A DNA stretch of 49,016 nucleotides, the filler included, from Bipalium vagum (taxonomy: Eukaryota): assembly GCA_037834085.1 (NCBI GenBank). It is 2 parts of 2 records of this genome, joined end to end, with 100 filler letters (N's around TTAATTAATTAA, not from the genome) between each part and the next. Parts side by side here need not be neighbours in the genome. Positions count along the whole stretch, not along the records: positions 1 to 23,498 come from JBBMKC010208376.1; 1 more part is not named here. One strand, 5' to 3'. This document shows, piece after piece, positions 1-47,119 of the stretch. Position numbers and translations under genes: made by a program. How positions within the stretch are numbered: the first letter of the stretch is position 1; each line of letters begins with the position of its first letter. The notes under the pieces are model-generated. The model was not told the origin of the DNA. It was given only the letters and a program-made list of their open reading frames with translations, and did no database searches.

Positions 1-885
1 TCGAAAAGTAATTTAAAAATTCCCAGAAATTTTAGTTTGAAAATACTTAGAAAATAAAATAACCCTCTAAAAATAATAATTTTTTTAAGAAGCTTAAAAG
101 AGGTATTTTAATAAATATTAAGGATCATAATAAAATAATTTTAGGGAATTGTTAGGGAATTTTAGAATTTTGATAAAATTTTTAGAATTTTAAGTACAAT
201 TTTGGGAATATCTTAAGAATATTTCGCAGATGAATATCAGTCCCAAATCAGTATATATCATATATCAGTATATAAGCAAAGGGATTTCAGCAGATTTTTA
301 ACCCTCAGAAAACGTGTTTACAATTATTGTCAACTGCAGAGTTCGATAACAGACAAATTCGGAAACAGAGTTCGATAACAGACGAATATTACAGTTCCAT
401 TCACAGGTACTCCAACGTTCATTTTAATGATGGGACTATGTTTACAATTCCCCACCAGAGGGTTATCGGTGAGCAACCGTTAGGGCTCAGACGATAACTC
501 GGGAGTTTTAACCGAAGGCAAATCGTAAGGTCTTTTTATTTAATTTTTTTATTATTTTGTATTAATATTTTATTAATCGTTGACTATATCTAATTATTAG
601 TATTTGATTTAACACTACATTTGATCCGTTTTGACTATATTTAATTATTATTGATAGTATTTGATTAAACGTGTAATTGTTGTGTTGTGATAAGATAGTG
701 TGAGGTAGGTTTAACATTTCAGACATTAATTGTGATCCCAGACTCTTGCATTATCTTGTTCGAATTCCGTGTATTTTCTTTTGCGTTTGTGTGATATAAA
801 TACAGGTGTTGCTTTACTGATTGTTTTTTTGCACCACCTAAGATTTGGAGTCAAGTTTAAATTTGATACACTAAATAGTGAACAA
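1..885 (+). mobile_element. LTR (3' portion) of a gypsy-type family, homologous to 20749-21650
   Basis: Shares the CCCCACCAGAGGG..TGAGCAA..GGCTCAG hairpin, TTTTGCACCA and the terminal TAGTGAACA with 21231-21650. TATA-like GTATATAAG near 272. Short tandem duplication CAGAGTTCGATAACAGAC at ~337-384. Confidence 0.75.
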
Positions 886-2800: not shown

Positions 2801-3660
2801 GTACTAAGAAAAGGAGACGATTTGGGGTGTTTTATAAAAAGATGTCAAAGAAACTTTGACATTAAGGAAACCCCAATAAAGAAGAGAAAAACAGCGATTT
2901 ATGCGCTGTTACACGAAGACCTATGAGAGGCCTACGAGGAAACATCTGGGAAGGCAAGAGGATTTGAAGCTAGAATCCGTCTATTGTTTGAGAAAGAAAA
3001 AATGTCGTTGACGACTGCGAAGAATTAATAATGTATAGAAGAGGCAGTGAGGACATTGAAGGCTTTTTTTAGGAATGTTAGATCATTGGTAGAGAAAGTA
3101 CTGTCACATGATCTGACCGTTGAAAAGCTTGAGGCACTGTTCTTAGTAAAATGCATTGGAGATGAGGTCGCACGAGAAGTCAAAATGCGAAGGCTGGGGA
3201 AAGGAAGCGAAATTAAAGATTTGATGAGATTGATAACCGACATCAAAGAAAAAGTCGGTAAAGGCAGTATGGAGTTACAGAGATGTTGTTATAAGGACAC
3301 CAGAATACTCTCATTTATAGGAAGACATATCGCAAGAGAAAATATTAAATGTTATGGATGTAATAAAGATAGCCATTTAGCTTGTAACTGTACGGCAAGA
3401 AGACAAATAGAATGCTGGACCTGTTCGAGTCAGGGTCACATTAGCAGGGATTGTCCAAAAAAGAAACCTTAAGTATGCTTCGGATGTCAGAGAGAGGGTC
3501 ATATTAGGAGAAATTGTCCAAATATAAAGTATAAACAGGAATGAGCATAGTGAAAGGGAATTTTATACGAACCTTCACGATGGTAGGAGTTTTCAAGCAC
3601 AGATGATCAGAGGTCCAAAAAAAGCTTATAGAAGAAATAACTTAAATGCATTAGAAGATT
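2800..3660 (+). mobile_element. Decayed gypsy Gag with tandem CCHC zinc knuckles
   Basis: Knuckles CYGCNKDSHLACNC, CWTCSSQGHISRDC and CFGCQREGHIRRNC. The N-terminal part (IYALLHEDL*EAYEETSGKARGFEAR) resembles the Gag at 16744-16968. Confidence 0.85.
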
Positions 3661-3684: not shown

Positions 3685-4355
3685 TTGTTGGGTTAGCTAA
3701 GGACACATCCCTGTAAACCCTTGTAAAAGCATATGTTAGAGACCGCAATAGGGTCTAGATTGGTTACCATTATTATCAATTAATTATTAAGACCGCAAAA
3801 GGGTCAGAAATAAAATAATAATAATTAATTAATTAAATAAAAAGTACATTCAAACAAAAAGGGCAATTAATTATTTCCAAAATAGATCTAATCTTGACAA
3901 CGGCGAACCTTAATTGCCAATATCAGATCAAAAATCGCAACGAGGGATCGATTTAGAATTATCGATCTAAAAAGGGAATCGACATTCCCCATTAGTCAAG
4001 CTGATCTACGACTGATTTGTCGTCTGATCAGAAGATGAAATTCGCAGTGGATTGCCAGAAAATCTCTGAGAGAAATTTGCGTCAGAAGGCACAATTTTTT
4101 CTTGGAGTTAGCAATCACTCTTCATGCCCTCTCTGCGACAGGAGCTCACAACGGGTCCTTTGTTGTTACGAGTTTTCTGAGCAAACCCGGTTGGGCTCAG
4201 CAAACCACCCTTTGGACCTGTCGTAGTCACAACTGGTGAGAGTATCTTCACTTTATTTTCTTTGTTTTTTTCTAAAATAATTAATATTTTGTGGAAACTC
4301 CCGAAACCATCCAAAAATTCCAAATGACAATATAATATTTTTGTGCACCAATAAC
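3685..4355 (+). mobile_element. LTR copy of the structured-LTR family (3' end uncertain)
   Basis: Begins TGTTGGGTTAGCTAAGGACACATCC, nearly identical to 40971. Shares GACCGCAA..GGGTC hairpins, the GATCTAATCTTG palindrome and the leader multi-stem with 40971-41725. Confidence 0.8.
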
Positions 4356-6100
4356 ATTATTATGTGATCAATTAATAAAAACTTTGTTTATTTAATTAGT
4401 TGTATTTATTTTTTATATATTTCATGTCAAAATAATCCTTTGCCGAAAATTTAATATATAATAAAGATTAAATAAAATAAAATATAAATAATAATAATAA
4501 TTATTATTGTTATTATTATTGTTGTTGTACATAAATTAATACAAAAGTCGTGAAAAAAAAACTAAAAATAGATTTTTTATAAAAAATTATGTATCAAAAG
4601 TTATAATTAGCAAGATATGTATAAAACATATTTAATTTATTATTTTAGTAAAAATTGCTACTAAAAATAATGTAGCTATTAGGAATTACATATAAATACA
4701 ATCAACATTTTTGTTGACTTGCACAAAATAGTCGACATAAAATAAACAGCGCAAATAAACGGCTCAAAAAAATAAAAGCGAAATATTTTGATCACGACAA
4801 ATTCAGAAACAGATAAATCAGACATATTCAAATCACGAAGCCATAATATCAATAACAATACAAATCATCCAAGTAGCTCAAATTATTTACATATAATCAG
4901 GTCAACGATTCACAAATAATTCAATAACAAATGTTATGCTCTATAGCAAGCAATTAATTTTATCTATTATTATTTTCTTTTTCTTTTAATAAATATTTTG
5001 CGTAATTGGTAATTTTTAATAAATTACACAATTACAATTATTTTAAATAACTGAAATCAAAAACCCTCAGTTGGTAATTTTCAATAAATTGCACAACTGT
5101 TTTAATTAATTATCTTATAAATAAATGCTAGGATCTAGCCCTAAAATCATGTAATCCTTTTTGTTATTTCCTCACTTCGGTTGCAGATTTTTGTTTTTCG
5201 CAGTTCACACACTAATTAGGGTGGTGAATTGTCTATCGTTGATATTTTTATCAGTGCGAAAAGATTTCCTTCCTTTAAATAATCCTAAACTCGGGGAAAG
5301 TTTTCTTACAGAGGATTGTTCAAACAGTAATCACTCTTGATTTGTAAAGTTACACAACTGTTTTGTTATTTAGTATCAATAAAGTATATAAAAACAATTT
5401 ATTTTAGTCAATTAAAAATCATAGAAAAAGCACGCTTCCAAAAACCTTCTAACCGTTAAGCTTTTAGTTCGCTCCACTTTTTAAGAGACTTAACAATTTA
5501 ATTATTTGATTGATTATTACCATTTGATTTTTAGTGATTACTTGAGACATTTTGTGATTGTTATTTTAGCAAGTTTTGTTCGTAGTTGTCTTGATTCATT
5601 CATTTGCGTCAAAAGTGAAGGGGTCAGTAAACTTTTCGAGCTAAGTGTTACGACAGTGTTCATTTTAAATAATAGCGTAACAAAATTTAATTTTACACTC
5701 TCAGTCTTGCCTCATTACATTTTCACAAACTACATCTGAAAGTTTATTTTGATCTCAATCCCTTTCTGAACTAAAATTTGAATCCCCTAATATTCTCTAC
5801 CTTAATATCATTTTTTCCTTCCTTCCCCTAATTTCATAAACTATTAACAATAACTTAACCACCATTCGGGAAATTTTTACTTTTTCGAGAAAACCAACTT
5901 AATAATATTTTACAATCTTATTATTGCTACGTTACTAAAATACACTTCGTCGTCCCTTCCTGGTTTCTTTTCTACTCAAAACTAGTACCTTTTCGACGAA
6001 CATATTTTAAATAAGATTTCGATAAAACTGAATGATTTGATTATTCAGATATAAGTAAAAACAAACGAAACAAATTATATTTAATCTATCAATTGAATAT

Positions 6101-9100
6101 TTATTTTCTTTCTTCGAAAGCCTTAGATTTATTCTAAAATTTATTAATAAGACCCAGTAACAAAAAAAAATTACCTGAACATTTTCGCAAAAAGCATTTC
6201 TGGAGATTAAATTTTTCAGTTTTTCATTTTCAGTTTTTAATTGCCTTATTTTCTCTTCCATTTTTTCAAATTGTACCCTCTTTGCTCGATATCGTGCTTT
6301 AAGATCATTGTAGTGATTAAGTAAAGTATCAAATGATTTCAGTCCTTCATTCTGTCGTTCGAGCACCTTTGAATTTTGATTAACTATCGACTTAAGTCTA
6401 TCAAGTTCCTTTTGCTTTTCTATCAACTCGGAAACATTAATCAAATTTTTACTGCCAATACTTGATATTTCAAGTGTCTCAAAACGGGCTTTCAGAGACT
6501 GGTTTTGGAATTTTTCTTCTTCTAAGACCTGATTACCTTTTACAATTTCAGATTCCAGCAATGATACTTTTTCTTTCATCAAATCCATTGAATTTGAAAG
6601 TTCTGAGAACTTACTATAAGATTTTAACAACTGTTGATCCTTATACATCAGTTCATCTTTGGCATAATTTAACGAACTTGTAGCACTTTGTAATTGACTT
6701 TTGAAACTTTCCACAGTTTCATAGGCTTTTCGAATTATGCACTCATTTTTTCCGAACAAACTTTGATACTCGCTAACACAGATATGCAATAATTCCTCAA
6801 CGGACATTTTGTACATTGCTTTCACTTCATTTCCAGAGTTCTTTTCTATGAAATTCTTTCCCAAGAATTCAATGCTTTCTTTCATTCTCAACGCTTCTAT
6901 TGACTGAACAATAATTTCTTTGAGTGTTCTTGTTTCGCATTCAAATGGTTTTACAATTTCATTAATCAAATATTGATTGGATCTCTCATTTTCGAAGTCT
7001 TCAATCAACAAACTTTGTTCAAAGATTTTCTTTTTTAATATTTCAAATTCCAACTTACACTTTTGTAATTCAGTTTTCAATGCTCTCATTGATTCAGTTT
7101 CTCGTTTTGAAAATTTTTCTTTGGACAATCGTTTAAATTCTATTATTTCTTGTTTTTCCGACAATTTCTTTTGTAGATTATCACAAGATAATCGGAGATT
7201 CTTTTCCACCAACTGAAATTCTGCCATTTTACACTGATTGTCCTTCAAAATTTCTTCGATTTCTTCATGGTGTCTTTTTCTAATCAAATTTATGTCATCT
7301 AATTTTCTCTGAACCTCTTCATTTTGAATGACACATCGCCTTGCACAACTGTTATCCACAAAATTTTTAAAATAGTCTATCCTCTGACATTCTAGTTCCG
7401 CAGTTCGAACATTGATTTCGCTTTTTAAATCAATTTTATCCGAATTTAGCATCGCAATTTGATTTCTGAAGTCTTCACGTTCTTTTTCTTTGGTTTCCTT
7501 TAGGGCGTTCAATTCACATTTCAAATTTGCTACAAGACTTTGCAAATCTTCATTTTCTTTATTTGAGGAGACCAAATCGTTATGCAATGTCTCGATAACT
7601 TTAGTTTTGCGGGATATACTTTCCTCGTACTCCATGATTTTCTCTTTTGAACTGCTAATTTCTTCAGACATTTTACTAGCATTTTCTCTAAGAAATATCA
7701 AGTCACTGAGTTCATCGTTAAACTTATTTCTTTCAGTTTTCAATTTTTGAATTTCAGATTGACAATTAAAGAATTTTAACCTGAAAGAATCCAGAAGTTC
7801 CTTAAGTGAATTTTCCGGCTCATTTTCATTATGATTTTTAACTAATTGATCAATACTTTCAAAATTTTCAAAAACTGAAGTTTCCATATATTTTATTGCA
7901 CAAATCAATTCTTTTATTTTATCTAATTCAAAATAAAGCTTTTCATTATCTTCTCTTAAAGTCAACAACTTTTTCTCTATCTCTGCTTTATCTTGCACCA
8001 CAGTTTTAAGATGATCTTTCAATTCAGAATGACTGGCTTCCATCTGAAGTTCATATTCCAATTTTTCAAACATGCACGTTGAATTCAAATCAACATTTTG
8101 GAAATGAACTTTAATTTTTTTAATCAAAATACAACAAAAGTGATAGATAAAATCTTCCAATTTAAAGGAAGATTTATTCATATCCTTAAAATTATTTGAT
8201 AAAAATTGTGTAAAAATGGAGAAAGATTTTTCAACCAAATATTCAAATTTGTCTTTTTCTTCCCATTCCAATTTCTCTAATTTTTCTGATAGCATATCTA
8301 AAATGTTAATATCATCTAACATTTCCAGACTTAAAAGTGATTTATTTTGTTGCGGCAATCTTTTGGAATTTGACAATTTAGAATTTTGTAAATTTGAGAT
8401 GCTCTACAAAATTAATGAACATAAATTCAATATAACACTAGTATATATCTTTAAGAATTTCTACTGTCAAAAAATGGTTTAATGTTTTAAAACTATTAAG
8501 GAATGAAGTAATTTTTTCAAATTTCTTAATTCACTTTTTAAATTAAAATATATTGATAGTTACAAAAAATAATGGTAAAATTTAAATGATCACAATAATT
8601 ATGAGCAAGATAAAAGGTTTATGAAAATGAAAAATAAAATATCAAAATAAACTTTTTCAGATGAATACATATTTTCTTCATTTTTCAAACAAATAGTATC
8701 AATGTTAAACAAGTCCAAATCCAAAATTGAGTCATTCATTGCACTGTTCTTGTTATCAATATCCTCATTTTGATTAATACTTAAACAACTTTGCTTAATA
8801 ATTGAGATTAGTTCAGGAATGGATTCATCATATGAAAGAATTTTTCCACTTTCAATAATTATACTTCTTAAGGAGTTACGATAAACTTCTTCGAAAGTAA
8901 TAAATTCATTCACTTTATAATTAAGTTCGAGGCATTCATTTATTTGCTCTTCAAGATCATTGTTGATTTTATCAATGTATAACTTTGCCTGTTCTAACTC
9001 AGTCGATTTTTTCTCAAGTTCATATTGATTTACAAGTTCTTCAATTCTGAATTCTGCGACTTCTAATTTGTCTCTTACAGAATCCATTTCAATTTGTAAT

Positions 9101-9134
9101 TTATTTTCATTATCAAATCTTTTCATAGTTGGAA
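6101..9134 (-). CDS. Large coiled-coil protein (~900 aa, family not identified). Exons 9134-8653, 8403-6175, 6133-6101; 5' end uncertain (upstream exon or ATG at 9126)
   Basis: Long E/K/L-rich open frames in AT-rich DNA. GT-AG junctions keep frame (SSEK|SISNL; ENVQ|NKSKAFEERK*). The last intron is 41 nt. Confidence 0.8.
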
Positions 9135-9784
9135 CTAAAAATAATTTTAAAATACTCATAATTAACATAAACTAAATCATATTAAAATATATTTCATGTT
9201 AACTTTTCTACTTATATATAAACAAATTCATGAAATTGAAATTTAAATTCATAATGTTAATTTAATTCTTGTCTGATAAAATGACTAATTTTGATTTAAT
9301 TAATATTAAATATAAAATTATTTAATCTTTAAATTAGAAAGTTTTGGTGATTTTAAAACTACCATATTCCTGAGTTACTGAATTTTACATTTTTGTCTTT
9401 GTTAATGTTTACCATACTAATTATCTCTACTTATATCTCTTCATTTTTATATATAAGATATCTAATTTAATTCTCATAATGTAAGTAATACTGAAACAAA
9501 ACTTGATATGTGTGTATCGATTCATTTTTCTTGATTGATAAATTTTCATAAAAAGAAAATTTAATAAAATTGCTTAAAACAATTAAAAACTTAAATATAT
9601 TTTTAAAATTTTTATTTCGGTTTAAATTCCGTAAACAGAGTTTGTTTTAATATTTAATATTTAATTTTGTGAATGAATAAGTTCTAAACGATAATATTTA
9701 TTTGTACAAGCTGAATAAATTTACTTTTTGTTTTATTAGTTAAGCAAATTAAATGTTTGATGAACTTACTTTTCAAACTGTGAA

Positions 9785-10400
9785 CTACTTCAAATCCAAA
9801 ATTATGTTTCGTAAAAGATGTAACCATTTTCGATTTCCCTTTTCAGTAAATTTTTTGAACATTAAATATTTTAGAGTTTTATTAAACCTTTCTATTACAA
9901 CTGCTTTTCCTTCATTCTCTGTTGAGTAAATTTCTATTTCATTATCACCACAAAATTCTTCAAAAGTTTTATTGTAAAATTCTGACTCTCTTGGTAAACC
10001 TAATCTTAAAGTTACCTTTCCTTTCATTATTAATTTTACAATTGCTCTTTCAAGTTTTTCTCTTGGAGTTGGATTTTGAATATTGTTCATTTCGAGAATT
10101 ATTTCTACATCTTTTCTTTTAAATCTGTTGATATACATTTTACACCATGTTTTATTGGTGCTTGATCAATTTGATTTATTGGAATTGAATCAGGTTTTGG
10201 AATTACGAGAATTGATAAATCTTGATTATCTTCATCATTTTCTAATATTTCTTCATAGTTTTCTAAATGTTTGTCAATATTAGTTCCAGGTCCTGTAAAA
10301 TTGTGAAGTAGATTTGTTTTGTTTAAAGGATTTACAGATTTTAAATGTAATTCAGCTGGATATTTGCCAGTTGTAAATTTGTTAAAAAATTATTATTAGT
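9785..10400 (-). pseudogene. Polinton/Maverick remnant: PLA2X (parvovirus VP1u-like phospholipase) joined to an rve integrase C-terminal core
   Basis: HNFTGPGT (10282-10305), INQIDQAPIKH, and NPTPREKLERAIVKLIMKGKV, followed by ESEFYNKTF..IEIYSTENEGKAVVIERFNKTLK..KW. Confidence 0.8.
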
Positions 10401-12399: not shown

Positions 12400-13880
12400 A
12401 AGATTATCATGACCAGCTTTTTTTGCAGATAAATATTTTCTCAAAGTTATAAATTGATCAAGTGAATGCTTTGGTTTATAGATTTGAAAACCTTTTCCTT
12501 CAGCTTTTATTTCTTGTAATTAATACATGTTTTCTAATATTCTTAATATATTTTGTTTTATTTCCTTTAAGGTTTATGCTTTTTATTAGTTCATCATATT
12601 TTTATATTTCTTCATTTTTAAAGTCAGGTTTAAAATTTCCTTTTATAATTTTCTAAATTCATTTGTTATTATATATTCCTTTTGTGTATTATTATCTCTT
12701 AGACATTCATCTTTATTTATAATTTTTAACACTTTTTTATTTATTTTAAATTATTTCTTTCAATAATTGGTATTAAACTTGATGACAATTTTTTATCTAC
12801 GTTCAAAGATAATAATGGAAGTTGATCATTTGTAAAGTTTTGTTGAACATTTATTATCTGTTTTATTTTGTTAGTTGAATTTGAATGATAGAACTTGTAT
12901 TCATTTTTCCTAATTTATCTACAAGTTTATGAAATGTATCTAAATCAGTTATTAATCCACTTTCTAATTTCCATTTTAATTAATTGATTAGTTGCAAATT
13001 TATTTTTTGCAGCTATTAATTTTTCTAATTCTTCAAATCTTCTTTTATTAAAATTTAATATTAAAATTCATTTAAAACTATTATTTTTGAGAACTTCGTT
13101 TGTATTTTTTAAAAATAAAAATGTATTATACAACAAATAAAAATGCGATAGAAGATTTTAACACTAAAAGTGTTGTTTCTATTTTTCCCAAGGAAATTCA
13201 TAATTTACAATTCCTAAATAATAATAAATATCTTGAAGAGAATAAATTTCAATATTTTTTAAGATATGAAAAGTTTCTAATAAATATAATATTTTGCTTA
13301 ATTCATAATAGTTACATTCATTATCCAATACACTCATTTTTTTAAAAAAATACGAACGAAGTTCTTAAAATTTATAGTTTTTAAAAATAGTACATATATT
13401 TTTTTCTAGACTTTGTCTTTAAAAGCGATGCTTCGCATTATGTTCTTATATCCTTTTCAAACTCTTGTTTCAACTCTTTTTAAACTTCCTTATTTATATT
13501 TTCAATTATTATTTTATCTTGCTCAATTTTGTCATTAGATAATATTATCTTATAAAGCTCTTAATTGAAATATAAAATATTTATTAATTGATGATTCTAT
13601 TGATTCAGAAATTTATCTATATTTCTTTTTATATGTGATTCGTATACAAATTGTTTCACAAAAAATTTTACAGAACCAAAAATTGATCTTGAAACAGGAA
13701 TATAAATTAATACGGCTATTAATAAAGTAGAAATTTCTGTTAATATTGTACTTCCAATTCCTGTTATTCCTCCTATAAAAATACTTCATAATTTTAAATT
13801 TGAGCCTGTAAAAGTATTTTTAATTTTTTTATAATGTTTTAATAAATCTTTTAATACTTTTTTTTATCGCTTCTTCACCT
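12400..13880 (-). mobile_element. Very AT-rich decayed Polinton-like ORF debris
   Basis: K/N/I-rich broken frames, including a basic-then-hydrophobic small ORF (KHYKKIKNTF..IFIGGITGIGSTIL). Also a GAACTTCGTT inverted repeat. Confidence 0.35.
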
Positions 13881-16800
13881 TAAATAAAAATCTCTTTCTT
13901 GTTATTCGCATTGAGGTTTTCAGTCTTCACTGTATTTAAGGTCTTCGTTTTAGGGTTTCCTGTTTTAGCTTCCTCATGTTGTATCTGACATTGATTACAT
14001 GTATCGCATTTTGGCCTGGACAGCAGATCTGCATTTGTGTGGTCTGTCCCTTTACGGTACTCTAATTGAATATCTAAACTGCTCAAATAATTGATCCACG
14101 TTTGGAACTGGGACGTGATTGACTTCTTTGTGCTTAAAAGTAATAGCTTTTTGGTCTGTTCGCAACAAAAATTTCCTGCCGTACAAAAAATGATTAAAAA
14201 GCTTACAAAAATAGTAAATAGCAAGCAACTCTTTTCTGGTCTCGCAGTAACCCTTTTCGTGGCTATTCAACGTGTGAGATCTACGCTACTATCCGTTCTT
14301 TACCATTATTATCCATCTGCGATAAAATTGCACCAATAGCGTCAAAACTTGCGTCCGTATCAAGAATAGTCTTGTCTTAGATCTGGAAAGCACAGTATTG
14401 GACTTGACATCAGGGCCTTTTTCAAATTCACAAATGCTTCTTCTGCAATTTCATTTCACACAAGCTTTTTATTGACATTTCCACACATGCGTTCCAAAGC
14501 TCTAGCTTTTCTTGCATATTCCTTGATGAATTTCCTATAATAATTGCATATTCCTAGGAAACTTCGTAAACCTTTTTACGCAGTTTGGTTTGTTGAAAGA
14601 TGTAATGGCTTCTATCTTCTGTAGATTCATCTTAATCCCTTTTTGATTTAAAAATTGTCCCAAGAATTTTACTTCTTCTTTTAAAAACTGGCATTTTTCA
14701 GGGTTCACTCGCAATCCAGCTTTTTTTATTTTTTAATACCCTATCCAGCCTTGTGTAATGTTGTTCGATGCTGTCTGAAAATACCAAGATATCATCCAGA
14801 TAAACAATTGTTCCTTTCAAACCACCAACTACTTTATTCATAATCCTTTGAAAAGTCCCTGGAGCAGCTGCTATTTCAAACGGCATGCGATTAAAACAAT
14901 ATTGGCCTGTTTTTGTTGAAAAGGCCGTCTTTTCTTTTGACTCTTCATCCAATTCCACTTGGTAATAGGCGTTTCCTAAATCAATAGAACTGAAATATTT
15001 TGACCCACTTAATTGATCTAGCATTTCATCAAGATTTGGGATTGGAAAAGCCGGTCTCTCTGTTATTGCATTGAGCTGTCTGAAATCCAAGCATAATCTG
15101 ATTTCCTGCTTATCTTTTTTCCACACATATATTAAAGACGTGTTCCACGGTGATTGACATTTCCTAATTATGTCATTCTTATGAAGGTTGTTTATTGTTT
15201 CATTGATCTTGTCTTTTAAATTCATCGGCTGTCTAAATGGTTTAATATTAATAGGATTACTTGTTGTTTCTATGTTATGCCGAGCTAAATGAGTGCATCC
15301 GAAGTCCCATTTATCAGCCATAAAGGCGTCTTCATTTTCTTGAATAATTTTACCTAACTGTGACTTCTGTTCTATTTTCAATGCTGTTAATGTTCGATGT
15401 TGTCGTTCTCCAATGTTTATTTGTCTCCCAAATTTTGCCTCAATATTGCAAATAAATGGTTTTTCTCTGTCTTCTATTTTGTTTATTTGCACTTTCGTAG
15501 TTAAGTTTTCTTGCTTTAATACAAAACCAAACTATCATTGTAATTCTACACATCCTATCGTCAGGAGTAATATTTTTCAGCACAATAAAATTAATTTCTG
15601 CTTGTCTGCCTTCTATTACAACATTTACTGACATTTTCCCATAGTTTCTGATGCGCTGTCACTTGCACATCGTAATCTGTCTTCACATTTTCTTAGTTGA
15701 ATATTACACAATATTTTAGCTATATTACTGCTCATTATATTATTTCTGACCGATGTATCTAATAAACATTCCAACCTCAACTCTTGTATCATTACTGTCA
15801 CACTCGGCCTCCCCTAAATCACATATTATCGCTAACCATATTCACTCATCCAGTATCATATCTATTACTCACCTCACAATTCTCTCTTTTTATAAATCTT
15901 TATATTTTTTCGTTCACCCTGTCATCTTCTCTTCCATCCACGGCCTCCTGGGAATAATCACTGACGATATTTAGTTGATGGCTCCGACTAGCTCCCCGAC
16001 TAGTGGATCCCTGTTGTTTGGGTGTTTCTCATCTTCAGGTATATCACTTCTATAGCATTCATCCTGTTAAAACTTACTCTGTTTCTTGTTGGCATTTCTC
16101 CCTGACTTCTAGATTCGTATCTACGTGAATCGAATTGTGCATAGCATTTTGACATAATGTCCATGTTTTTTGCATCTTAAACAGACAACATTGGGACATG
16201 ATTTTTTATGTCCAGGTTTTCTACACGCGAAAAATTTTCTGTCAGAACATTCTCTACTTAAATGTCGCATTTTGTTGCAAGACCAACAAACAATATCACT
16301 TTGGTCTCTTCACCTGTTAATACTATGGTAGTTACCTGTCATGTGTCTTGATCCTGCAAAATTCTTCGGTACTGTGTGATATTCAGGAATCTTTGTTGTC
16401 TGTACCATCTTCATTTTATTCTGTTTTGTATTCACTGCAGTTTCGGTCAAAATTGATTTTCTCGTTTCCCTTTTGATTAATTACTTCCATTTTTTTCATC
16501 AGAGCTTCAATATCATCCATATTTTTAGTTTCCTCATTTCTACTTCTCGAACCATTTCTTCGTCATTCACGAAGTATAATAACATTCTTGATATTAAATT
16601 TTCTGTGATTTGATACGCCAACGCCTTTTCACTTTCTTCTTTATTATCTTCACGAATGATTGGATATCTTCGTTTCCTCTTCGATATTGTAATAGGTTTT
16701 CCAAATCTGATATCATGTCCACCGGTTCTGCAAAAGCTGGTCGCTATTTAACTTCAAAGCCATCTGCTTTTGAAAATGTTTTTTCATAATCTTCGATGAG

Positions 16801-20748: not shown

Positions 20749-21650
20749 TTATTGGGTTTACCAAAACACTCATCCGTCCCAAATGAAAATTGTAAAAGGA
20801 TGTTTAAAATAATAAGAATAATAATTAAATAACAATTTTTGCTAATTAAAAAGTACAAAGTTAATTAAAAAGGGAAAAAAGGCAATAATTTATTTTTTGT
20901 TGGGATCTAATCTTGACAATGGCGAACCTAAATTGCCAAGATTAGATCAGGGTCTGCAAGGAGGGACCGATTTAGGATTAATGATCCTAAAAGGAAATAT
21001 TGACATTTCCCATTAATAAAATTAGTCGTCGACAAAAATACTGTATAAGAAGAAGGATTCTACCATAAATTAGCCCACAATCACGAGATCAACATTTTGA
21101 AGAAACTTTTTAGAAGACGACAATTTCAAGATGTTCGTTGAGATTCAAGCCAGACGACAGATTCAAGATATTCGGAAGACTATAATTCTGAAGTATTTTT
21201 AATGCATTTGGTCTTGGGATTGGGTTTGAGTTCCCCACCAGAGGGCTATTTCTGAGCAACTGTAAAGGCTCAGCTAATAGTCCGGGAAACCTAAACGAAG
21301 ATAATTCGTATGCTTATTTCATTTTTTTATTTTCACCTTAATATTATTTTTGGTTAAAACTAAGTAATTTGATTATATTATTTCATATTAACTATTGATT
21401 AACTTTAAGTATTTATTTGTGTTCTTAACTCGAATTTGGTTAACTATTTTGTTTTGATTGATTATTAAAGATAATTGCAGATGTGTCAGATCTTATTGTG
21501 ATTCATTTTCTCTTAAGTTTGACGATTTTAGTGTAATTGTTATCATTGTATGTGTTTTAAGGTGTAAATACAAATTATTGCTTTAATGATTGTTGTTATT
21601 TTGCACCATCTTAGAGTAGGAATCAGGTTTAAAGTTTGAATTAGTGAACA
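20749..21650 (+). mobile_element. 5' LTR of a gypsy element (structured-LTR family)
   Basis: The 5' half matches the 3685 and 40971 copies; the 3' half matches 440-885. Ends TAGTGAACA, 7 nt before a PBS. Confidence 0.8.
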
Positions 21651-21657
21651 TATTTAT

Positions 21658-21682
21658 TGGTGAGCGGCCGACGTGATTCGAA
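21658..21682 (+). promoter_or_regulatory. Primer-binding site complementary to the tRNA-Trp 3' end
   Basis: TGGTGAGCGGCCGACGTGATTCGAA versus the reverse complement of the eukaryotic tRNA-Trp 3' end, TGGTGACCCCGACGTGATTCGAA. Confidence 0.75.
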
Positions 21683-23340
21683 AATCGGTTGGTAATTGTG
21701 AAACTGTGTGGGTGATTGTGTGTTATTGGTCTTTGTCTAGTTTGCGTGACTTGTTTTGAATTTGTAAGCCCTGAATACCGTTTTGATAAATTTTTGGAAC
21801 TTTTAGTAATGGCCGCCGAGGCATAGAAGTTGTTTATAGTGTTTCAGGAAGAAATCAGTAAGCGTCCAGAAAACTAATCTGGCTAGTGGAAAGAAATCAG
21901 TTACAGATATTCGAGGAGTTATAACCAGAAGTTTGACAAAGATAATTAAAGAGAAAGGTGTAGAAGAAAATCATTTAGAAATCTAGGAGAATAACCGAGA
22001 AGGAACATTAGAAGACATTAATACAGGTGTTAAAGAGATAAATATAATGGATTAAGAATTCGTAAAATTACCGGTAGGATATTTAATGGGGAACCAACAG
22101 AATTCGCAGATTTTATGGCTGAGTATTGGCAAGTGACAGAAGCGTTAGGATATGATGAGGCACGGATGGTAAGAAGATTACCGAATCATTTGAGTGGAAT
22201 GGCACAGAGTGCAAATTATGACAAACGTAGCAAACAAAAGTTGGGTCGAAGTGGTTAAGGAATTAACGAAGAAGCTAATTTCGGGAGATATAGGTAGAGT
22301 AAATAGGAAGCAAGGAGCAGAAGAGTCAGTAGGCAAATATGCGTATCAAGTAGAATTATTAGCACAGAGAGCATTCGGATCCAAGAAACAGTGGACACAA
22401 ACAATTAAAAAGATAGTGGAAGATCAGTTTTTCATTGGAATGTTAAAATCATTAAGAACAGCGTTAGGATTGGCAGATTATAAAATTTTCGAAGAGTTAC
22501 TGCAGAAAGCACGAAAAACAAAAATGAATATTAAAGGAAACCCAACGATGATTTGTGAAATAGGAGCAGTTAGAAGAGACAGCAATAGACTAGAAACATG
22601 GAAATAAAGCGAAATGAGACCAATGAGCAAATAGTAAAGAATATTATATTGTCAGAAGCCAGGGAATTTAACGAAGCAATGTGGATCTAGAAAATCAGAA
22701 TTTTGTCCAGGTCCAGCTAGAAATCAGAGGACAAATACAGATATTGTTTGTAGAAACTGTAATGAAACAGGTCATTTGGCAGAAAAGTGTAAAATAAAAA
22801 TTTTTAGGTATTGCAAGAAAAGAGAACATTTGGAAGAGACGTGTTGGGCAAAGAATTCACCTCAAAGAGATAATGTAAACATCGATGAGAAAGTACAATG
22901 CTTTTAATGTAAGGCGTATGAACACATGGTGAAATCTTGTCTTAGTGAAAAGAGATCACAAAAAGTGATTAAAAGGTTGGCATTGGGTAATGAAAAAATA
23001 ATCATGGTAAGAGATATGGAAGACAATAACGAAACCGAAAAATTGAGGGCAGAAAACGGAGATCCAGAGTAATTGGACACGAAATGGTATCAATGATCCA
23101 AATACAGGAAAATGAAATTAAGATATTAACTAGAAACGATTCACTGAAAGAAAAAGTAGATGTTAACGGGAACGTAATAATGGCATTAGTGGATTTGGAT
23201 GAAGAAGAATGTAATACACTTCCTGGGGTACTAGAACGGGAATTCGCAAGGACCTCTAGAAACAAAAACAGAATTATGGATTTGTTAAGTCAGGTAACGG
23301 AACAGGCGGTCACTGCAATGATGCCTGGGAGAAGTCAAAG
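21683..23340 (+). mobile_element. Decayed gypsy Gag region with about four zinc knuckles, truncated
   Basis: Retrotransposon gag motif QGAEESVGKYAYQVELLAQRAF..EDQFFIG. Knuckles YCQKPGNLTKQC, CRNCNETGHLAEKC, YCKKREHLEETC and CF*CKAYEHMVKSC. Confidence 0.85.
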
Positions 23341-37564: not shown

Positions 37565-39927
37565 CTACTGCTGTCTACTATAGGGGTGATATCCTCCGGT
37601 GTTACCTGCAGTACTGCCTGCGCCTCCTCGTCCACGCGCGGTCATTTTGCCTCCTGCTGCACTACCTGGAGCTCTCGGGGGTACGACATAAGGCTGTGGC
37701 GGCATCGGATAAGCTGGACAGATCAACGGAACACGCATCAGAAGGAAGAGGAACATGAAATGAAGAAGTCACAATAAGTCACGGAACATCAGTGATAAGA
37801 TAAGATACTTACAGTAACCATACGGATAGCCACCGTAATAACTGCTGTAGTAGGCGTTTGGATCGTATGAGTATGGATATTCATAACTATAGTACTCACT
37901 GCCCGGGGGATACATGGAGCTGTTGTAGTTACCCCAAGCCGTCACTGTCGATAATGGAATCACAATCAATAGGGCCACAGATAAAAACGTCAATCAAACC
38001 GTTACTTTTATTTTTGTTCACTTGATCCTTGGGCACCGCCATTCGCACGTCACACTGCAAATTAAAACGAAACACGATCAAAACGAAAATCAATAAAAAT
38101 TTCGAAATAGAGCGTGATAAGTAGTTATCATTATCAAATGGAAATTTTTTCTTACTTAATCTTTTTTATGTTACCGATATATATGTACAACAAATGTTAC
38201 GACAAAGCTAACTTTAACGCTTAGAGATAAAATGAAAATGATCTTTACCAGAAAATGTTTACGGAGAAAAAATCAATAAAATCGAGTTACATGAAAATAC
38301 CAATGAAATCTCAGCACACCTGTCAGAGGGGAACTTAGCCGTGGTTTGAAAACACGTACGTTTCGTGTATGATGATGGTAGTAGAGGTAGGTACCTTTGT
38401 CCCTTCTTTTTCAAGTCCCACCATGCCGGCAACGTTCAGAAGAAAAGCCTTTTTGGAAACGTTGGCACTACTTTCCTGTTTGAGACACGCGTATTTTGTG
38501 CGGCTTTATAATCGAAAAATGAACTCTCGGCAACAACAAAAGACTCAGCATAAAAAATTGATTATTTTTTTGCTTTTCCAAAATATCCAATCATGCACAA
38601 TCGATAATTATTTTAATAAACTCAGACAAACAAACATCGGTTTGAGAAAGCGAAAAACAATGTTTAAAGATTATTATTATTATGTTAATAAAAAATGACT
38701 TTCACTAAATTATTGACAGGTTTTAATCGGAAAAAAATCAGTTACTAAAATTTAGTAAAAAAATTATGAAAATCGATAATTTAAAAAGTTCAGCTTAAAT
38801 TATGATTATAATTAAATCAATTTCTGAACCATTGATCTCATTTATCTTTACAAATCAATTGACTTTTAAAATTATAAATATATCAAAAAATCGATAATAT
38901 AAATACAAAATAATTAATGCAACTTTAACTAAAATTGTAATAATGCCGATTAATTGATTTTTAAATTATTAATTTATCAATTGACTCCAACAAAGAATGT
39001 AAAAATGACAAATCAAAGCCAATAGTCAAATCTGGTCGACTTTTTACTCTTTGGAAATTAACGATTTTTGTGATTTTGTTTTATTATCGATTTTGTGGTG
39101 TAAAGTGTTAATTTACCTTGGAACCAAACACGTCTTGTTTTTCGATTAAAATAGCGTTTTTCGCCGCTTCCTCTGTGGTGAACGAGAGAAAAACGTACGG
39201 CTTCCTTTTTCCCTTGGACGTGTCAAACGGTAAATCCACGCTTTCCACCTGAACAAAAAAAGAGAATGGAAGATAGACCAAATGTTAGAAACTCCATTTT
39301 GGTTTTCTTATCGTACATTTCCATATTGGGAAAAGAATTCTTTGATTTGATCTTCAGAAACGTCTGGAGAGAGGCCGCCGACGAAAATCTTCTTGTTTGG
39401 CTCCTTAGTGGGCTTTGCTGACTTCGGATCTATCTTTTTGTTCTTCAACCGATGCTCGCTAACTTCGAGCACTCGTCTCATCACCTCCTCACTCTCCATC
39501 GTAACAAAGCCAAATCCCCGGGAATTCCCGGTCATTTTGTCGAGTTTGATGACGCAGTGAGTCACTTTGCCCCAAGACTCGAAGTACGACTTCAGGTCGT
39601 CCTCGGTCGTTTCCCAGCTCAATCCGCCGACGAAAAGTTTTCTATTCGAGCATTAAATGAAGGAAGGAAGAAAGCGTAGAAATCCCGTTCGGGATCGGAT
39701 CAGAAACACAACCTGCTGTCATCGTCGTCATCGACTTCGTTTGTCGAATCGACTTTGTTGCTCCATTTGTTGTTGGAGTCGTCGTTGGTACCCAAACGAG
39801 ACGTGTCATCTGGTACATTTTCTGCTGTTTCATCCTTCTCAAAATTGTCAGCGTCGACTTGTTCCACCACTTCCTTGTGGTTCTCGACGTCCTCGCTGAA
39901 ATTTTCGTTAGAATTGGTGGCCGACAT
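37565..39927 (-). CDS. hnRNP A/B-D (squid-like) two-RRM protein, 335 aa. Exons 39927-39713, 39641-39317, 39248-39117, 38054-38000, 37944-37813, 37713-37565
   Basis: KLFVGGLSWETT, SRGFGFV, KKIDPK and KIFVGGL; Tyr/Gly-rich tail with RGRGG and terminal GYHPY (PY-NLS-like). All junctions are GT-AG and total 1008 nt in frame. Confidence 0.93.
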
Positions 39928-40970
39928 GTTTTATGAAATGAAATTGAAACTGTTTTTAAATTGATCGATTAAAACAAATTTGTTTTGTGATTTATTAATT
40001 TCATTTAAGAAATGACTTTTGCTTTCTCCACCAAAACCAGTTTTTCTGGTCCAGATCAATTTTAGAAATTCTTTTTGAATTTTTTAAATTTAATTTCTTA
40101 TCAAAATAATTAAGAATATTAAACCAAAATTAATTAATAATATTTGATAAACTTTAATGAATTTTTAAGTTAACAAATTTCAAATAATATGAGGTTACCA
40201 AAATAATCTCACAATCATAACTTTAAAATTCAATTTCAAATTCAACATAGGTATATATAAAGCTATTGGACCAAAACACTTAAACCATATACACAAAAAT
40301 CCGTGGTAAGCCAGGTAAACCCAATGCAATTGTAAATATCATTTCAATATCATTTAAAAATAAACTTATCAAAAATAGTTTATATTAAGAATGATTTATG
40401 TAAATGTCTTAGAAATTCTTCGTAATTTTTGGAATATACGTAGGCTACTCGACAAGTGTTACAAAATGACACTCTACATTAGCTCGATGTGATCTGAATT
40501 TTTATGATAACATTTTGATTTTTTAAGGTGTGCCTTAATGTTACATTTTGAACAGATGCTTTTGGATAATTGATATTTCAATACTTCTTAATATAAAAAT
40601 GAAATTAAATCCCGATAATTGAAAAATCATGATTTATTAATATTAGCGAGGATATTTATCTTAAAGGTATTTCATTTCTCAGTCTAATTCAACTTTTGGT
40701 GATGAAACCCTTCACAATTCCACTCTACATTACTGATTCGAAAAATCTAACAGTGGTCTTAGTTCACTGACGGATTACTTTAAGAGCATCCAAAACCAAT
40801 CGTGGGACTAACAAGCATTATTGTCACCAAAGAACTAATAAAGCTTGGTTATAATATGACTTAAATCAAGATTTGTGCATCATTGAGTATTAATATGACT
40901 TAAATATACTTAGTGTTCCATGAATATTTTGGTGTGAAAATCTGTGTACCGATTAGATCTTGCATATATT

Positions 40971-41091
40971 TGTTGAGTTAGCCAAGGACACATCCTTGCC
41001 AACCCTTGTAAAAGTAGAAGTATGGTAGAAACCGCAATATGGCTTAGATTGATTATTATCAATTAATTATTAGGACCACAAGAGGGTCAGA

Positions 41092-41146
<55 letters not shown>

Positions 41147-41725
41147 TAATTATTAATTAATTAATTAAAAAGTACCAAAATGGGCAATTAATTATTTCCA
41201 AAAAGAATCTAATCTTGATAATGGCGAACCTAAATTGCCAAGATTAGATCAGGGTCAGCAAGGAGGAACCGATTTAGAATTATCAGGCTAAAAGGGGATT
41301 GATCGTCTGATCAGAATAGTATATAAAGAGTTTGAATCCGCAGTGGATTGCCACAGAAGTGAGATCGAGAGCTGCTGTTATTATTTTCAGAAAAGTGATC
41401 GAGCTATTATTATTGTCAGAAGAGTGATATTGTCAGAAGAGGGATCAATAGTTGCTATTATTATTTTCAGAATAGTGATCGAGCTATTATTATTGTCAGA
41501 AGAGTGCTATTGTGATTACGAGTTGTCATTATTATTTTCAGAAGGAGGACCAAGAATTAATTTGCTGCTATTATCTGAAGACTTTTTATTCGACATTGTA
41601 ATTCATATAGATGCCCTCTATGCGACAGGAGCACACGACGGGTCCTGTGCGGTTAGGGGATTTCTGAGCTGACCGGATTGGGCTCAGCTAACCACCCTTT
41701 GGACCTGACGTCACAAGTGGTGAGG
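40971..41725 (+). mobile_element. LTR copy of the structured-LTR family
   Basis: Colinear with 3685-4240. TATATAAA near 41320, an internal (AAT)n tract and an internal tandem array. Confidence 0.85.
41357..41582. repeat. Degenerate ~28-30 nt tandem array inside the LTR
   Basis: Repeated GTGATCGAGCTATTATTATTGTCAGAAGA-like units. Confidence 0.85.
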
Positions 41726-45924: not shown

Positions 45925-47119
45925 TTCTTTTTATTCCCTGAGTGGTGACTATTTTTGGCACTCTGGGAAAGTCACAATAATGCTTATGAATATAAGACGC
46001 CACTGCCCGGATACGGACCCTAGGTGGTCTTACATAAAGGGCTGTCAAGCTGTAGAAAGTTGCCACAACGAAATTATTGAAGGATTGTATTTCAAAGCTG
46101 TAAGAGTTTTGACATTTGGTGATTATCGAAGGCATGTTATTTGTGGGTTTGCAGCAACAAGACAATTTTTTTGCCAGAAAATTTCTACGATATTTGTTTC
46201 CATCTCAAAGACGCATGTTGAACTTTTGCAGGGGTTTTGACAATCATTCCACCCTGTGGAGTTCGTTCGTCTTTAGATGCGTCTCACTGACGACCCAAGG
46301 CCTGATTGAAATTGCTCGTCGAGGAAGGGCTCGTTCATTAAATTATTTTTTTGTGTTTCGTTTCATTTACTTTATCTTATTGAACTTTATTGACATTTTT
46401 ATTAACATTGATTCCATTATTGATTCTCGTTGGTATAATTACTTGACATTCGATTATTGATTTATTTTTATAAGTGCTGGCAAAAGTTGTGGGTAATTGT
46501 TGATCTATTTGAATTGGTGAATGTGCGTCATTGGACGATTGTATTGTCTTTGTGTTAAAAAGGTTTTATTGTCGAACTGATTATTCTCCTTCTCTCATTA
46601 ACATCAACCATGAGTGAGAGGAAGGGCAGCGACTAAAGGTTTGGATTTCTACTACTCGTTACAAATTGACAAAATAGTTGGGCTTGCCTTCACTTATCGT
46701 TAAATATTAGATTAAAATGTACTGGCATTTAATCAATGAAACGGTCATGTCTCGTTAGATGCCCTAAATGTTTGTGGACAGAAAAATGAATGTCATTTCT
46801 AAGACCTTTATGGACTTACTCTTCTTACTCTTCAACGTGAACATGTCCGATATGGGTTCGGTGTCGTTTGGTGCTAATTGTAATTCGTTGGTTTCATGGA
46901 TTACATTGTCGCTTCACAAATGTCTTCACTGGGGAACGGCTTTTTGTCACAGAGCTGACCACAAAGAATTTCCATCAATCCAGACTCTTGAGAATTTCCA
47001 TGACTCTGTCGGTTGTTCTCGGTACAGCTCGACCATGTGGTACAACCTCAAAATGAATTATGTCTTCACATATACATCGATACAACTTCACCTTTTCACA
47101 AATCGATTCTTTTTAACAA

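What the first reader, a model, noticed from the sequence alone, without database searches (positions are those of the whole stretch)
4134..4240. Alternative multi-branched leader RNA (type B) sharing the CTGAGC/GCTCAG helix
Seen: a closing stem GCGACAGG/CCTGTCGT, a first arm around ACGGGTCCT whose stem differs between copies (ACAAC/GTTGT here, GCACA/TGTGC at ~41630-41650), and a second arm CTGAGC-bulge-CC-loop-GG-GCTCAG also present in type A leaders. GGGTCC may alternatively pair with GGACCT. Inference: one conserved protein-binding helix presented in two different scaffolds, possibly switchable.
Basis: partly seen in the sequence, partly recalled or inferred. Interest (0 to 1): 0.7.

Follow-up and report, generated by a model that had tools for sequence, protein, structure and literature searches.

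The report
uORF-threaded hairpin in retrotransposon LTRs
The stretch is a decayed copy of an RNA hairpin found in the end repeats of a large family of jumping genes in this animal, with a tiny 15-20-codon reading frame that runs up one side of the hairpin and stops at its tip, so a ribosome likely unzips the hairpin and thereby decides whether an RNA is translated or kept intact, probably for packaging.

Summary
The pairings are in the sequence, but this copy is a decayed, TATA-less, truncated solo LTR of a Ty3/gypsy-like retrotransposon, and alone it folds no better than shuffles (z -0.94). Eight LTR subfamilies from this genome show one scaffold for types A and B: a bulged rod with many compensatory changes. 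CTGAGC/GCTCAG is conserved as structure, not sequence. The three-way junction is a plausible second state in B2/B3 only. A 5' splice-site motif follows 54-58 nt after the stop, the leader is AUG-poor, and Gag appears to start at CUG/GUG. Best reading (inferred, no RNA data): ribosome melt-through and reinitiation that sorts RNA between translation and an intact-rod use such as packaging. It resembles foamy-virus and pararetrovirus leaders but fails the shunt geometry. The scan had not noted this on other DNA.

The parts
3686..4286 (+). 5' two thirds of a solo-type LTR (subfamily B1), starts TGTTG; 3' part (polyA signal, U5) missing; TATA box lost in a 13-bp deletion near 4032
   Evidence: full relatives are TG...CA, 785-1076 bp, with perfect 4-bp target duplications in 13 of 21 rows
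4124..4180 (+). upstream ORF, 18 codons (MPSLRQELTTGPLLLRVF), ATG 4124-4126, stop TGA 4178-4180 at the base of the top helix
   Evidence: same position in 26 of 34 B1, 34 of 45 B2, 9 of 14 B3 copies
4135..4142 (+).
4148..4158 (+). X2, 5' strand of the rod's lower stem (one A.C mismatch in this copy)
   Evidence: two-sided changes between B and C/D
4159..4167 (+). 5'-side bulge of about 9 nt, ends in GTT in B, D, C1 and E; candidate protein contact (inferred)
4168..4211 (+). middle stem (5' strand damaged in this copy), small internal loop, top helix 4177-4182/4195-4200, 3-nt bulge, apical mini-stem and loop
4214..4224 (+). Y2, 3' strand shared by X2 (rod) and X1 (junction)
4227..4241 (+). short hairpin (4227-4230/4236-4239) over a 5' splice-site / U1-type motif G|GTGAG, GT at 4236-4237
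   Evidence: GTRAG 54-58 nt after the helix codon in all eight subfamilies; use as splice site untested
40970..41724 (+). second truncated LTR (B2): uORF 41611-41667, rod, GT at 41720
427..530 (+). type A1 leader: uORF 427-483 ending at TAG in the apical loop, rod, GT at 525
21202..21313 (+). type A2 leader: uORF 21202-21255 ending at TGA of the top helix, rod, GT at 21308
21658..22049 (+). primer-binding site (21658-21677; tRNA-Trp-like, identity recalled), acceptor-like TTTCAG 21842-21847, candidate CTG start of Gag 21879-21881, in frame with ATG 22047

Best explanation
It is the structured leader in the R region of a Ty3/gypsy-like LTR clade: a bulged rod hairpin overlapped by a short upstream ORF that ends at its apex, which likely lets a translating ribosome melt the rod, terminate at the tip and reinitiate downstream at Gag, so that translated RNAs lose the fold while untranslated RNAs keep it, probably for packaging. 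Shown: LTR context, rod covariation, position and frame of the uORF, AUG-poor leader, splice-site motif, candidate CUG/GUG Gag start. Inferred: transcription start upstream of the uORF, its translation, melting, reinitiation, and the packaging role. The adjacent U1-type site upstream of AATAAA likely serves a second, nuclear job (splicing or suppression of 5'-LTR polyadenylation).
For: Rod: two-sided changes in lower stem (G-C to A-U, C-G to G-C), middle stem (U-A to C-G at three pairs) and top helix (G-C to A-U, A-U to G-C, C-G to U-A) across eight subfamilies; forcing the rod costs at most 2.1 kcal/mol in all six B/C/D groups; B-trained structure models give 21 and 25 hits at E<=0.01 in 46 A/C/D/E loci, the sequence-only model 3. 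uORF: intact (14 or more codons, in-frame stop) in 166 of 218 decayed copies; family-typical ATG-to-stop distances 45, 48, 51, 54, 60 nt, all multiples of three; the stop stays a stop through TGA/TAG; B3 keeps 54 nt through a +1/-1 pair of indels; A1 reads another frame yet still ends after 18 codons, in the loop. ATG density 1.9-6.6 per kb in the leader and 2.4-5.0 after the splice motif against 8.8-12.9 in U3; it is the rarest of six letter permutations in 7 of those 8 regions. No third-position bias in differences between families, so the event and not the peptide is kept. Gag frame opens at CTG (16), GTG (11) or TTG (1), never ATG, with a purine at -3 in 28 of 28, in frame with the later ATG in 20 of 28. 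Analogies: uORF plus stem sorting RNA between translation and packaging in CaMV and PFV (PMC5902531, PMC2761275); HBV polymerase binds epsilon on pregenomic but not precore RNA (PMC8615760).
Against: No RNA, ribosome or probing data; all function is inferred. The uORF AUG is the first AUG after the presumed start in only 34 of 66 B, 7 of 11 A2, 11 of 25 A1 and 11 of 46 C/D copies (start site assumed at TATA+25, copies decayed). A1 has an extra out-of-frame ATG in 28 of 32 copies and some A1 copies lack the loop stop. AUG contexts are mostly weak. Copies and subfamilies are related, so the number of independent events is small (about five distinct lengths). The search anchors contained the stop codon region and the NTG motif, which favours seeing them. 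AATAAA follows in B (46 of 61) and C/D (58 of 67) but in few A2 (6 of 32) and no A1 (0 of 17) copies within the range scanned. Fold z-scores are weak in D (-0.9) and C2 (-1.6). Within B alone rod and junction fit equally (93.4% and 95.1% of cells paired), and the junction model gave slightly more hits in other families than the rod model. Nothing here ties the rod to packaging.
Confidence: 0.5

Rival explanations
1. Mainly a nuclear element: the structure gates U1 access to the splice motif and so controls splicing or polyadenylation at the 5' versus 3' LTR, as in foamy virus; the uORF only dampens Gag output or marks spliced RNA for nonsense-mediated decay.
For: GTRAG is kept at a fixed place in all subfamilies with varying flanks and lies in a small hairpin or is paired by upstream sequence in predicted folds; AATAAA lies about 100-250 nt downstream in B and C/D; same order as foamy virus (PMC3694450). 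The stop lies 54-58 nt before the motif, near the 50-55 nt decay rule (recalled).
Against: Does not explain why the uORF ends exactly at the apex in two different frames, nor the AUG-poor sequence after the splice motif, which fits scanning of unspliced RNA. No canonical AATAAA in most type A copies. No spliced DNA copy found.
Confidence: 0.25
2. A true two-state RNA switch (rod versus three-way junction by strand exchange of X1 and X2 on one 3' strand), is the working principle.
For: X1 follows two of three changes of the shared strand between B and C2 and pairs 7/8 in D and C2; junction is the favoured state in B3 (mean probability 0.44 against 0.18) and in this copy (0.73).
Against: 5-11 kcal/mol penalty in B1, D, C1, C2; arm 1 has no common register; no equivalent kept in A1; none of 7 closing pairs shows a two-sided change within B.
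Confidence: 0.15
3. The uORF is the true first exon of gag, joined by a recoding event at the helix stop and by splicing.
For: The +1 frame after the stop is open to the splice motif in B (26 of 28, 37 of 40, 12 of 14) and C1 (14 of 18), and in B it would join the gag frame at the TTTCAG acceptor.
Against: The open frame differs by family (+2 in A2; none in most C2 and A1 copies), so no single recoding rule fits; C-type gag has no matching acceptor and a good GUG.
Confidence: 0.06
4. A self-cleaving ribozyme (HDV-like or hammerhead) in the LTR.
For: C-N-R-A follows the top helix in B and A2, as in HDV-like J4/2 (recalled).
Against: No Rfam match; my simple descriptor found the HDV L3+P3+GG core in 0 of 218 copies and a hammerhead core in 1; the R of CNRA is base-paired with covariation.
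Confidence: 0.02

Closest known systems
Prototype foamy virus leader (R-region splice donor, PMC3694450; sORF-dependent shunt, PMC2761275)
   Same: Splice-donor motif inside R upstream of the polyA signal; structured leader; short ORFs before Gag; reinitiation.
   Different: Here the host element is a Ty3/gypsy-like retrotransposon; the uORF runs up the stem to the apex instead of ending before it; the rest of the leader is AUG-poor, not loaded with sORFs; Gag likely starts at CUG/GUG.
Caulimovirid shunt configuration (CaMV, RTBV; PMC5902531)
   Same: 5'-proximal uORF whose peptide is not conserved, a strong stem, U/A-rich sequence behind it, proposed sorting between translation and packaging.
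   Different: Shunting needs the stop in front of the stem so that the stem stays folded; here the stop is 30 nt inside, at the top, so the stem would be melted.
HBV epsilon and precore translation (PMC8615760 passage; Nassal 1990 title only)
   Same: Bulged rod in a terminal repeat whose function is lost on RNAs translated through it.
   Different: In HBV a long ORF on a separate transcript class does it; here a dedicated 15-20-codon ORF on the same RNA. No sequence or Rfam match.
Rous sarcoma virus leader uORFs (PMC2657110 table entry)
   Same: Short uORFs in a retroelement leader, Gag by reinitiation.
   Different: No apex-terminating geometry is described in the passage read; different element class.

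Membership tests
LTR of an LTR retrotransposon | TG...CA ends with short target-site duplication | tested here: met
   perfect 4-bp duplication in 13 of 21 rows, one mismatch in 5 more
LTR of an LTR retrotransposon | primer-binding site and gag follow the LTR | tested here: met
   (L202, L216, L220, L227, L229 for type B)
Ty3/gypsy | gag-protease-RT-RNase H order with gypsy-type domains | tested here: met
   gag-asp_proteas, RT_RNaseH, RT_RNaseH_2 in linked but broken elements L205, L208; zf-CCHC weak
Ty3/gypsy | integrase after RNase H; RT phylogeny | tested here: inconclusive
   no Pfam hit on the fragment tried; no tree built
uORF-dependent ribosome shunt (CaMV/PFV) | short 5'-proximal uORF with unconserved peptide | tested here: met
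   5'-proximal in only about half of A/B copies
uORF-dependent ribosome shunt (CaMV/PFV) | uORF terminates in front of the stem base | tested here: not met
   stop lies at the top helix or in the loop
uORF-dependent ribosome shunt (CaMV/PFV) | bypassed region holds inhibitory AUGs | tested here: not met
   sequence after the rod is AUG-poor
Foamy-type U1 control of LTR polyadenylation | splice donor in R upstream of the polyA signal | tested here: inconclusive
   motif order met in B and C/D, AATAAA mostly absent in A; R borders inferred
Foamy-type U1 control of LTR polyadenylation | U1 binding suppresses 5'-LTR cleavage; different fold at the 3' LTR | not testable with these tools
   no RNA data
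Retroelement packaging signal | specific Gag/nucleocapsid binding, needed for encapsidation | not testable with these tools
   none
HDV-like ribozyme | P3/L3 core, P1.1 GG, catalytic C in J4/2 | tested here: not met
   0 of 218 copies; Rfam none
Conserved-peptide uORF | purifying selection on the peptide | tested here: not met
   no third-position excess; A1/A2 and B1/B3 read shared bases in different frames

The most novel reading that the evidence does not exclude
A retrotransposon clade has a dedicated 'melt-through' device: a uORF tuned in length to end at the apex of its packaging hairpin, so that each initiation event both licenses reinitiation at a non-AUG Gag start and erases the packaging signal on that RNA, the inverse of the pararetroviral shunt, kept across at least eight LTR subfamilies whose sequence has otherwise turned over.
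Probability: 0.35. Interest if true: 0.75.

Novelty: new variant of a known kind. Interest (0 to 1): 0.55.

Why it matters
How a retroelement RNA is sorted between translation and packaging is an old open question. A 110-nt element with natural compensatory series, a uORF whose stop tracks the apex and a candidate non-AUG Gag start is a compact, directly testable model, and suggests that short ORFs inside LTRs, which annotation ignores, are under selection. If only the nuclear (U1) role holds, it would still extend the foamy-virus arrangement to gypsy-type elements.

Tried and rejected
Rfam on the window and on 16 better copies: nothing relevant. RNA runs: no RNA holder listed; the one run laid behaved as genomic contigs and showed no joint at the splice motif, which says nothing on expression. 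Pattern search for a spliced DNA copy joining the R-region motif to the gag acceptor: 0. Two exact-pattern scans of metagenome contigs: 0. 5' hairpin state (X1 with TCCTGT): common in B1/B2 predictions but lost in B3 (probability 0.00), rejected as conserved. GGTTAG/CTAACC register: B2 only. RNAalifold consensus on B recovered the top helix and part of the closing stem but a weak, different middle; not relied on. HDV-like, hammerhead, twister, pistol and SECIS readings: rejected (the last three by eye against recalled motifs). Stop readthrough and -1 slippage at the G-rich run: not shared by A, C, D. Kissing-loop dimerization through a wobble palindrome in GGGUCC: not kept in C, untested. One search had helix 1 one column off and was replaced. 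Host: protein search did not name it (best named flatworm hit 70% over half the query); earlier notes call it a planarian. Literature: ten searches; those combining uORF, LTR retrotransposon and packaging or R region gave 0 papers or only general reviews (77); the library lacks most subscription journals and repeat databases, and no supplements were read.

Full report
Context. The window is two contigs of an AT-rich 441-Mb animal genome; earlier scan notes call it a planarian, my own protein search did not settle it. The finding belongs to a repeat with 1767 first-look candidates. Flank comparison shows an element of about 900 bp, TG...CA, with perfect 4-bp target duplications in 13 of 21 rows: mostly solo LTRs. 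Some are followed by a primer-binding site (tRNA-Trp-like by recall) and a gag shared with type A elements; linked broken pieces carry protease, RT and gypsy-type RNase H; integrase was not identified. The window copy starts at 3686, has lost its TATA box in a 13-bp deletion near 4032 and ends near 4286. In relatives the motif lies after the TATA box and, in B and C/D, before AATAAA, so most likely in R (inferred).

Checking the observation. The pairings are present, but the copy folds like its shuffles (z -0.94). The two arm-1 stems are in different registers; the one here depends on private changes and the other pairs in 66.8% of cells. Over 93 B copies three states are within a few kcal/mol: rod (X2 with Y2), three-way junction (X1 with Y2) and a 5' hairpin; mean probabilities rod/junction/hairpin are 0.44/0.07/0.31 in B1, 0.31/0.14/0.33 in B2 and 0.18/0.44/0.00 in B3; this copy is 0.73 junction. 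B alone cannot choose between rod and junction (42 of the 93 copies were given to those calls).

Distant families decide it. Following gag-linked LTRs gave families C1, C2 and D, whose 5' arm is only 51-56% identical to B2 in the two pairs compared (B2-D, B2-C1). In 218 copies of eight subfamilies (53 further hits dropped for contig edges or indels) the rod keeps its register with two-sided changes in the lower stem, the middle stem and the top helix, and between A1 and A2. One lower-stem pair is a mismatch in C, and D and C2 have two mismatches in the middle stem. Models trained on B only, run over 46 A/C/D/E loci, gave 21 (rod) and 25 (junction) hits at E<=0.01 against 3 for sequence only (E-values rough, the two models share the upper half, so this shows homology and not which state wins); type A scores 4-14 bits better under the rod. 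Forcing the rod costs at most 2.1 kcal/mol in every B/C/D group, forcing the junction 0.1 (B3), 2.3 (B2), 5.0 (D), 6.2 (B1), 10.0 and 10.8 (C2, C1) (14 copies each). So A and B are one scaffold; the junction is a possible second state. In its favour, X1 followed two of three changes of the shared strand; that is few events.

The overlooked feature. The top helix begins with a stop codon (TGA in A2 and B, TAG in C and D) in frame with an ATG 45-60 nt upstream. Here the ORF is 4124-4180. It is intact in 23 of 30 B1, 40 of 44 B2, 10 of 15 B3, 13 of 20 C1, 24 of 32 C2, 10 of 14 D, 25 of 31 A2 and 21 of 32 A1 copies. A2 lineages with different upstream sequence keep the ATG at 51 or 54 nt; B3 keeps 54 nt through compensating indels; A1 has one base more, reads another frame and ends after 18 codons at a TAG in the loop. 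Five distinct family-typical lengths are all multiples of three, which has about a 1 in 81 chance if lengths were free (my arithmetic; lineages are related). The anchors I searched with contained the stop region, not the ATG. Differences between families show no third-position excess, so the translation event seems to matter, not the peptide. ATG is scarce both before the uORF and after the splice motif, relative to U3 and to its letter permutations, although the uORF AUG is first in only about half of A/B copies and a quarter of C/D copies under my assumed start site. After the primer-binding site the gag frame opens, usually 5-15 codons after an in-frame stop, at CTG, GTG or TTG in a good context, ahead of a conserved basic N-terminal motif and 147-201 nt before the first ATG in the 20 of 28 in-frame cases (the motif used to find it required NTG but allowed ATG, which never occurred).

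Mechanism. Shown: the anatomy above. Inferred: scanning ribosomes meet the uORF AUG 17-26 nt before the stem base, elongate up the 5' arm and unwind a rod of about -24 to -35 kcal/mol, terminate at the tip, and the small subunit resumes scanning over AUG-poor RNA to Gag. An RNA so used has lost the fold; an untranslated one keeps it for a ligand, most simply Gag, with the 5' bulge and apex as candidate contacts. Confidence 0.5. A GTRAG motif 54-58 nt after the stop in all subfamilies points to a nuclear role as well (rival, 0.25). Recoding into gag fits B but not A1 or C2. Ribozyme readings fail.

Comparison with what is known. Foamy virus has its major splice donor in R upstream of the polyA signal, with U1 suppressing 5'-LTR polyadenylation (PMC3694450: abstract and Background read), and a sORF-dependent shunt (PMC2761275: passages). 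Caulimovirid shunting needs a short uORF ending in front of the stem, whose peptide is not conserved, and is thought to preserve the packaging signal (PMC5902531: passages and section 6). The element here shares the parts but not that geometry, so it is not a member; it would work more like HBV precore translation through epsilon (PMC8615760: passage and reference title; the melting mechanism is recalled). RSV reinitiation after uORFs is from a table entry in PMC2657110; PMC10275272 passages mention only the non-LTR element SART1. Searches for a uORF-hairpin unit in LTR retrotransposon R regions found none (listings only), in a library that lacks most subscription journals; no supplements were read. 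The scan's own notes held nothing on this sequence.

Verdict. New variant of a known kind; interest 0.55.

Noticed in passing
window 46215-46330; L352-L366: A more distant LTR family (E) with the same outline: lower stem, 9-nt 5' bulge like that of B, middle stem, short top helix, GTAAG motif about 45 nt after the loop; ATGs 63 and 47 nt upstream give ORFs that often end at or just past the apex, in 15 decayed copies with many exceptions.
   Followed up: partly
window 3885-3930, 20904-20970, 31070-31130, 41195-41260: U3 carries a strong inverted repeat followed by a second small hairpin, shared by type A and B LTRs (z -3.5 for 20900-20985); damaged at 3885.
   Followed up: no
window 41354-41543 and B, C, D LTRs: Variable-number tandem repeats containing CAGAAG lie between the TATA box and the uORF; leader length varies from about 130 to 560 nt while staying AUG-poor.
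   Followed up: partly
window 21740-21770; L202, L213 and others: Further 5' splice-site-like motifs (GTGAGT, GTAAGT/GTAAGC) about 75-100 nt after the primer-binding site, conserved in A, B and C elements.
   Followed up: no
window 30990-31230: LTR fragment with U3 only, cut just after the TATA region.
   Followed up: no
window 26809-28386: TRAF-like gene (RING/zinc finger exon, MATH domain) with much higher G+C than its surroundings.
   Followed up: no
window 3032-3472, 13880-15531 (-), 9785-10165 (-): Unrelated or unlinked mobile remains: zinc-knuckle gag piece just upstream of the LTR, an RT/RNase H piece, and an integrase-like piece.
   Followed up: no
window 39308-39968 (-), 33129-33743, 6007-9171 (-): Host genes: two-RRM hnRNP-like protein, a TAF8-like histone-fold protein (recalled likeness), a long coiled-coil protein.
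   Followed up: partly
L254 and L164: A1-type copies whose uORF lacks the loop stop and runs 32-37 codons to a TAA inside the splice motif.
   Followed up: partly
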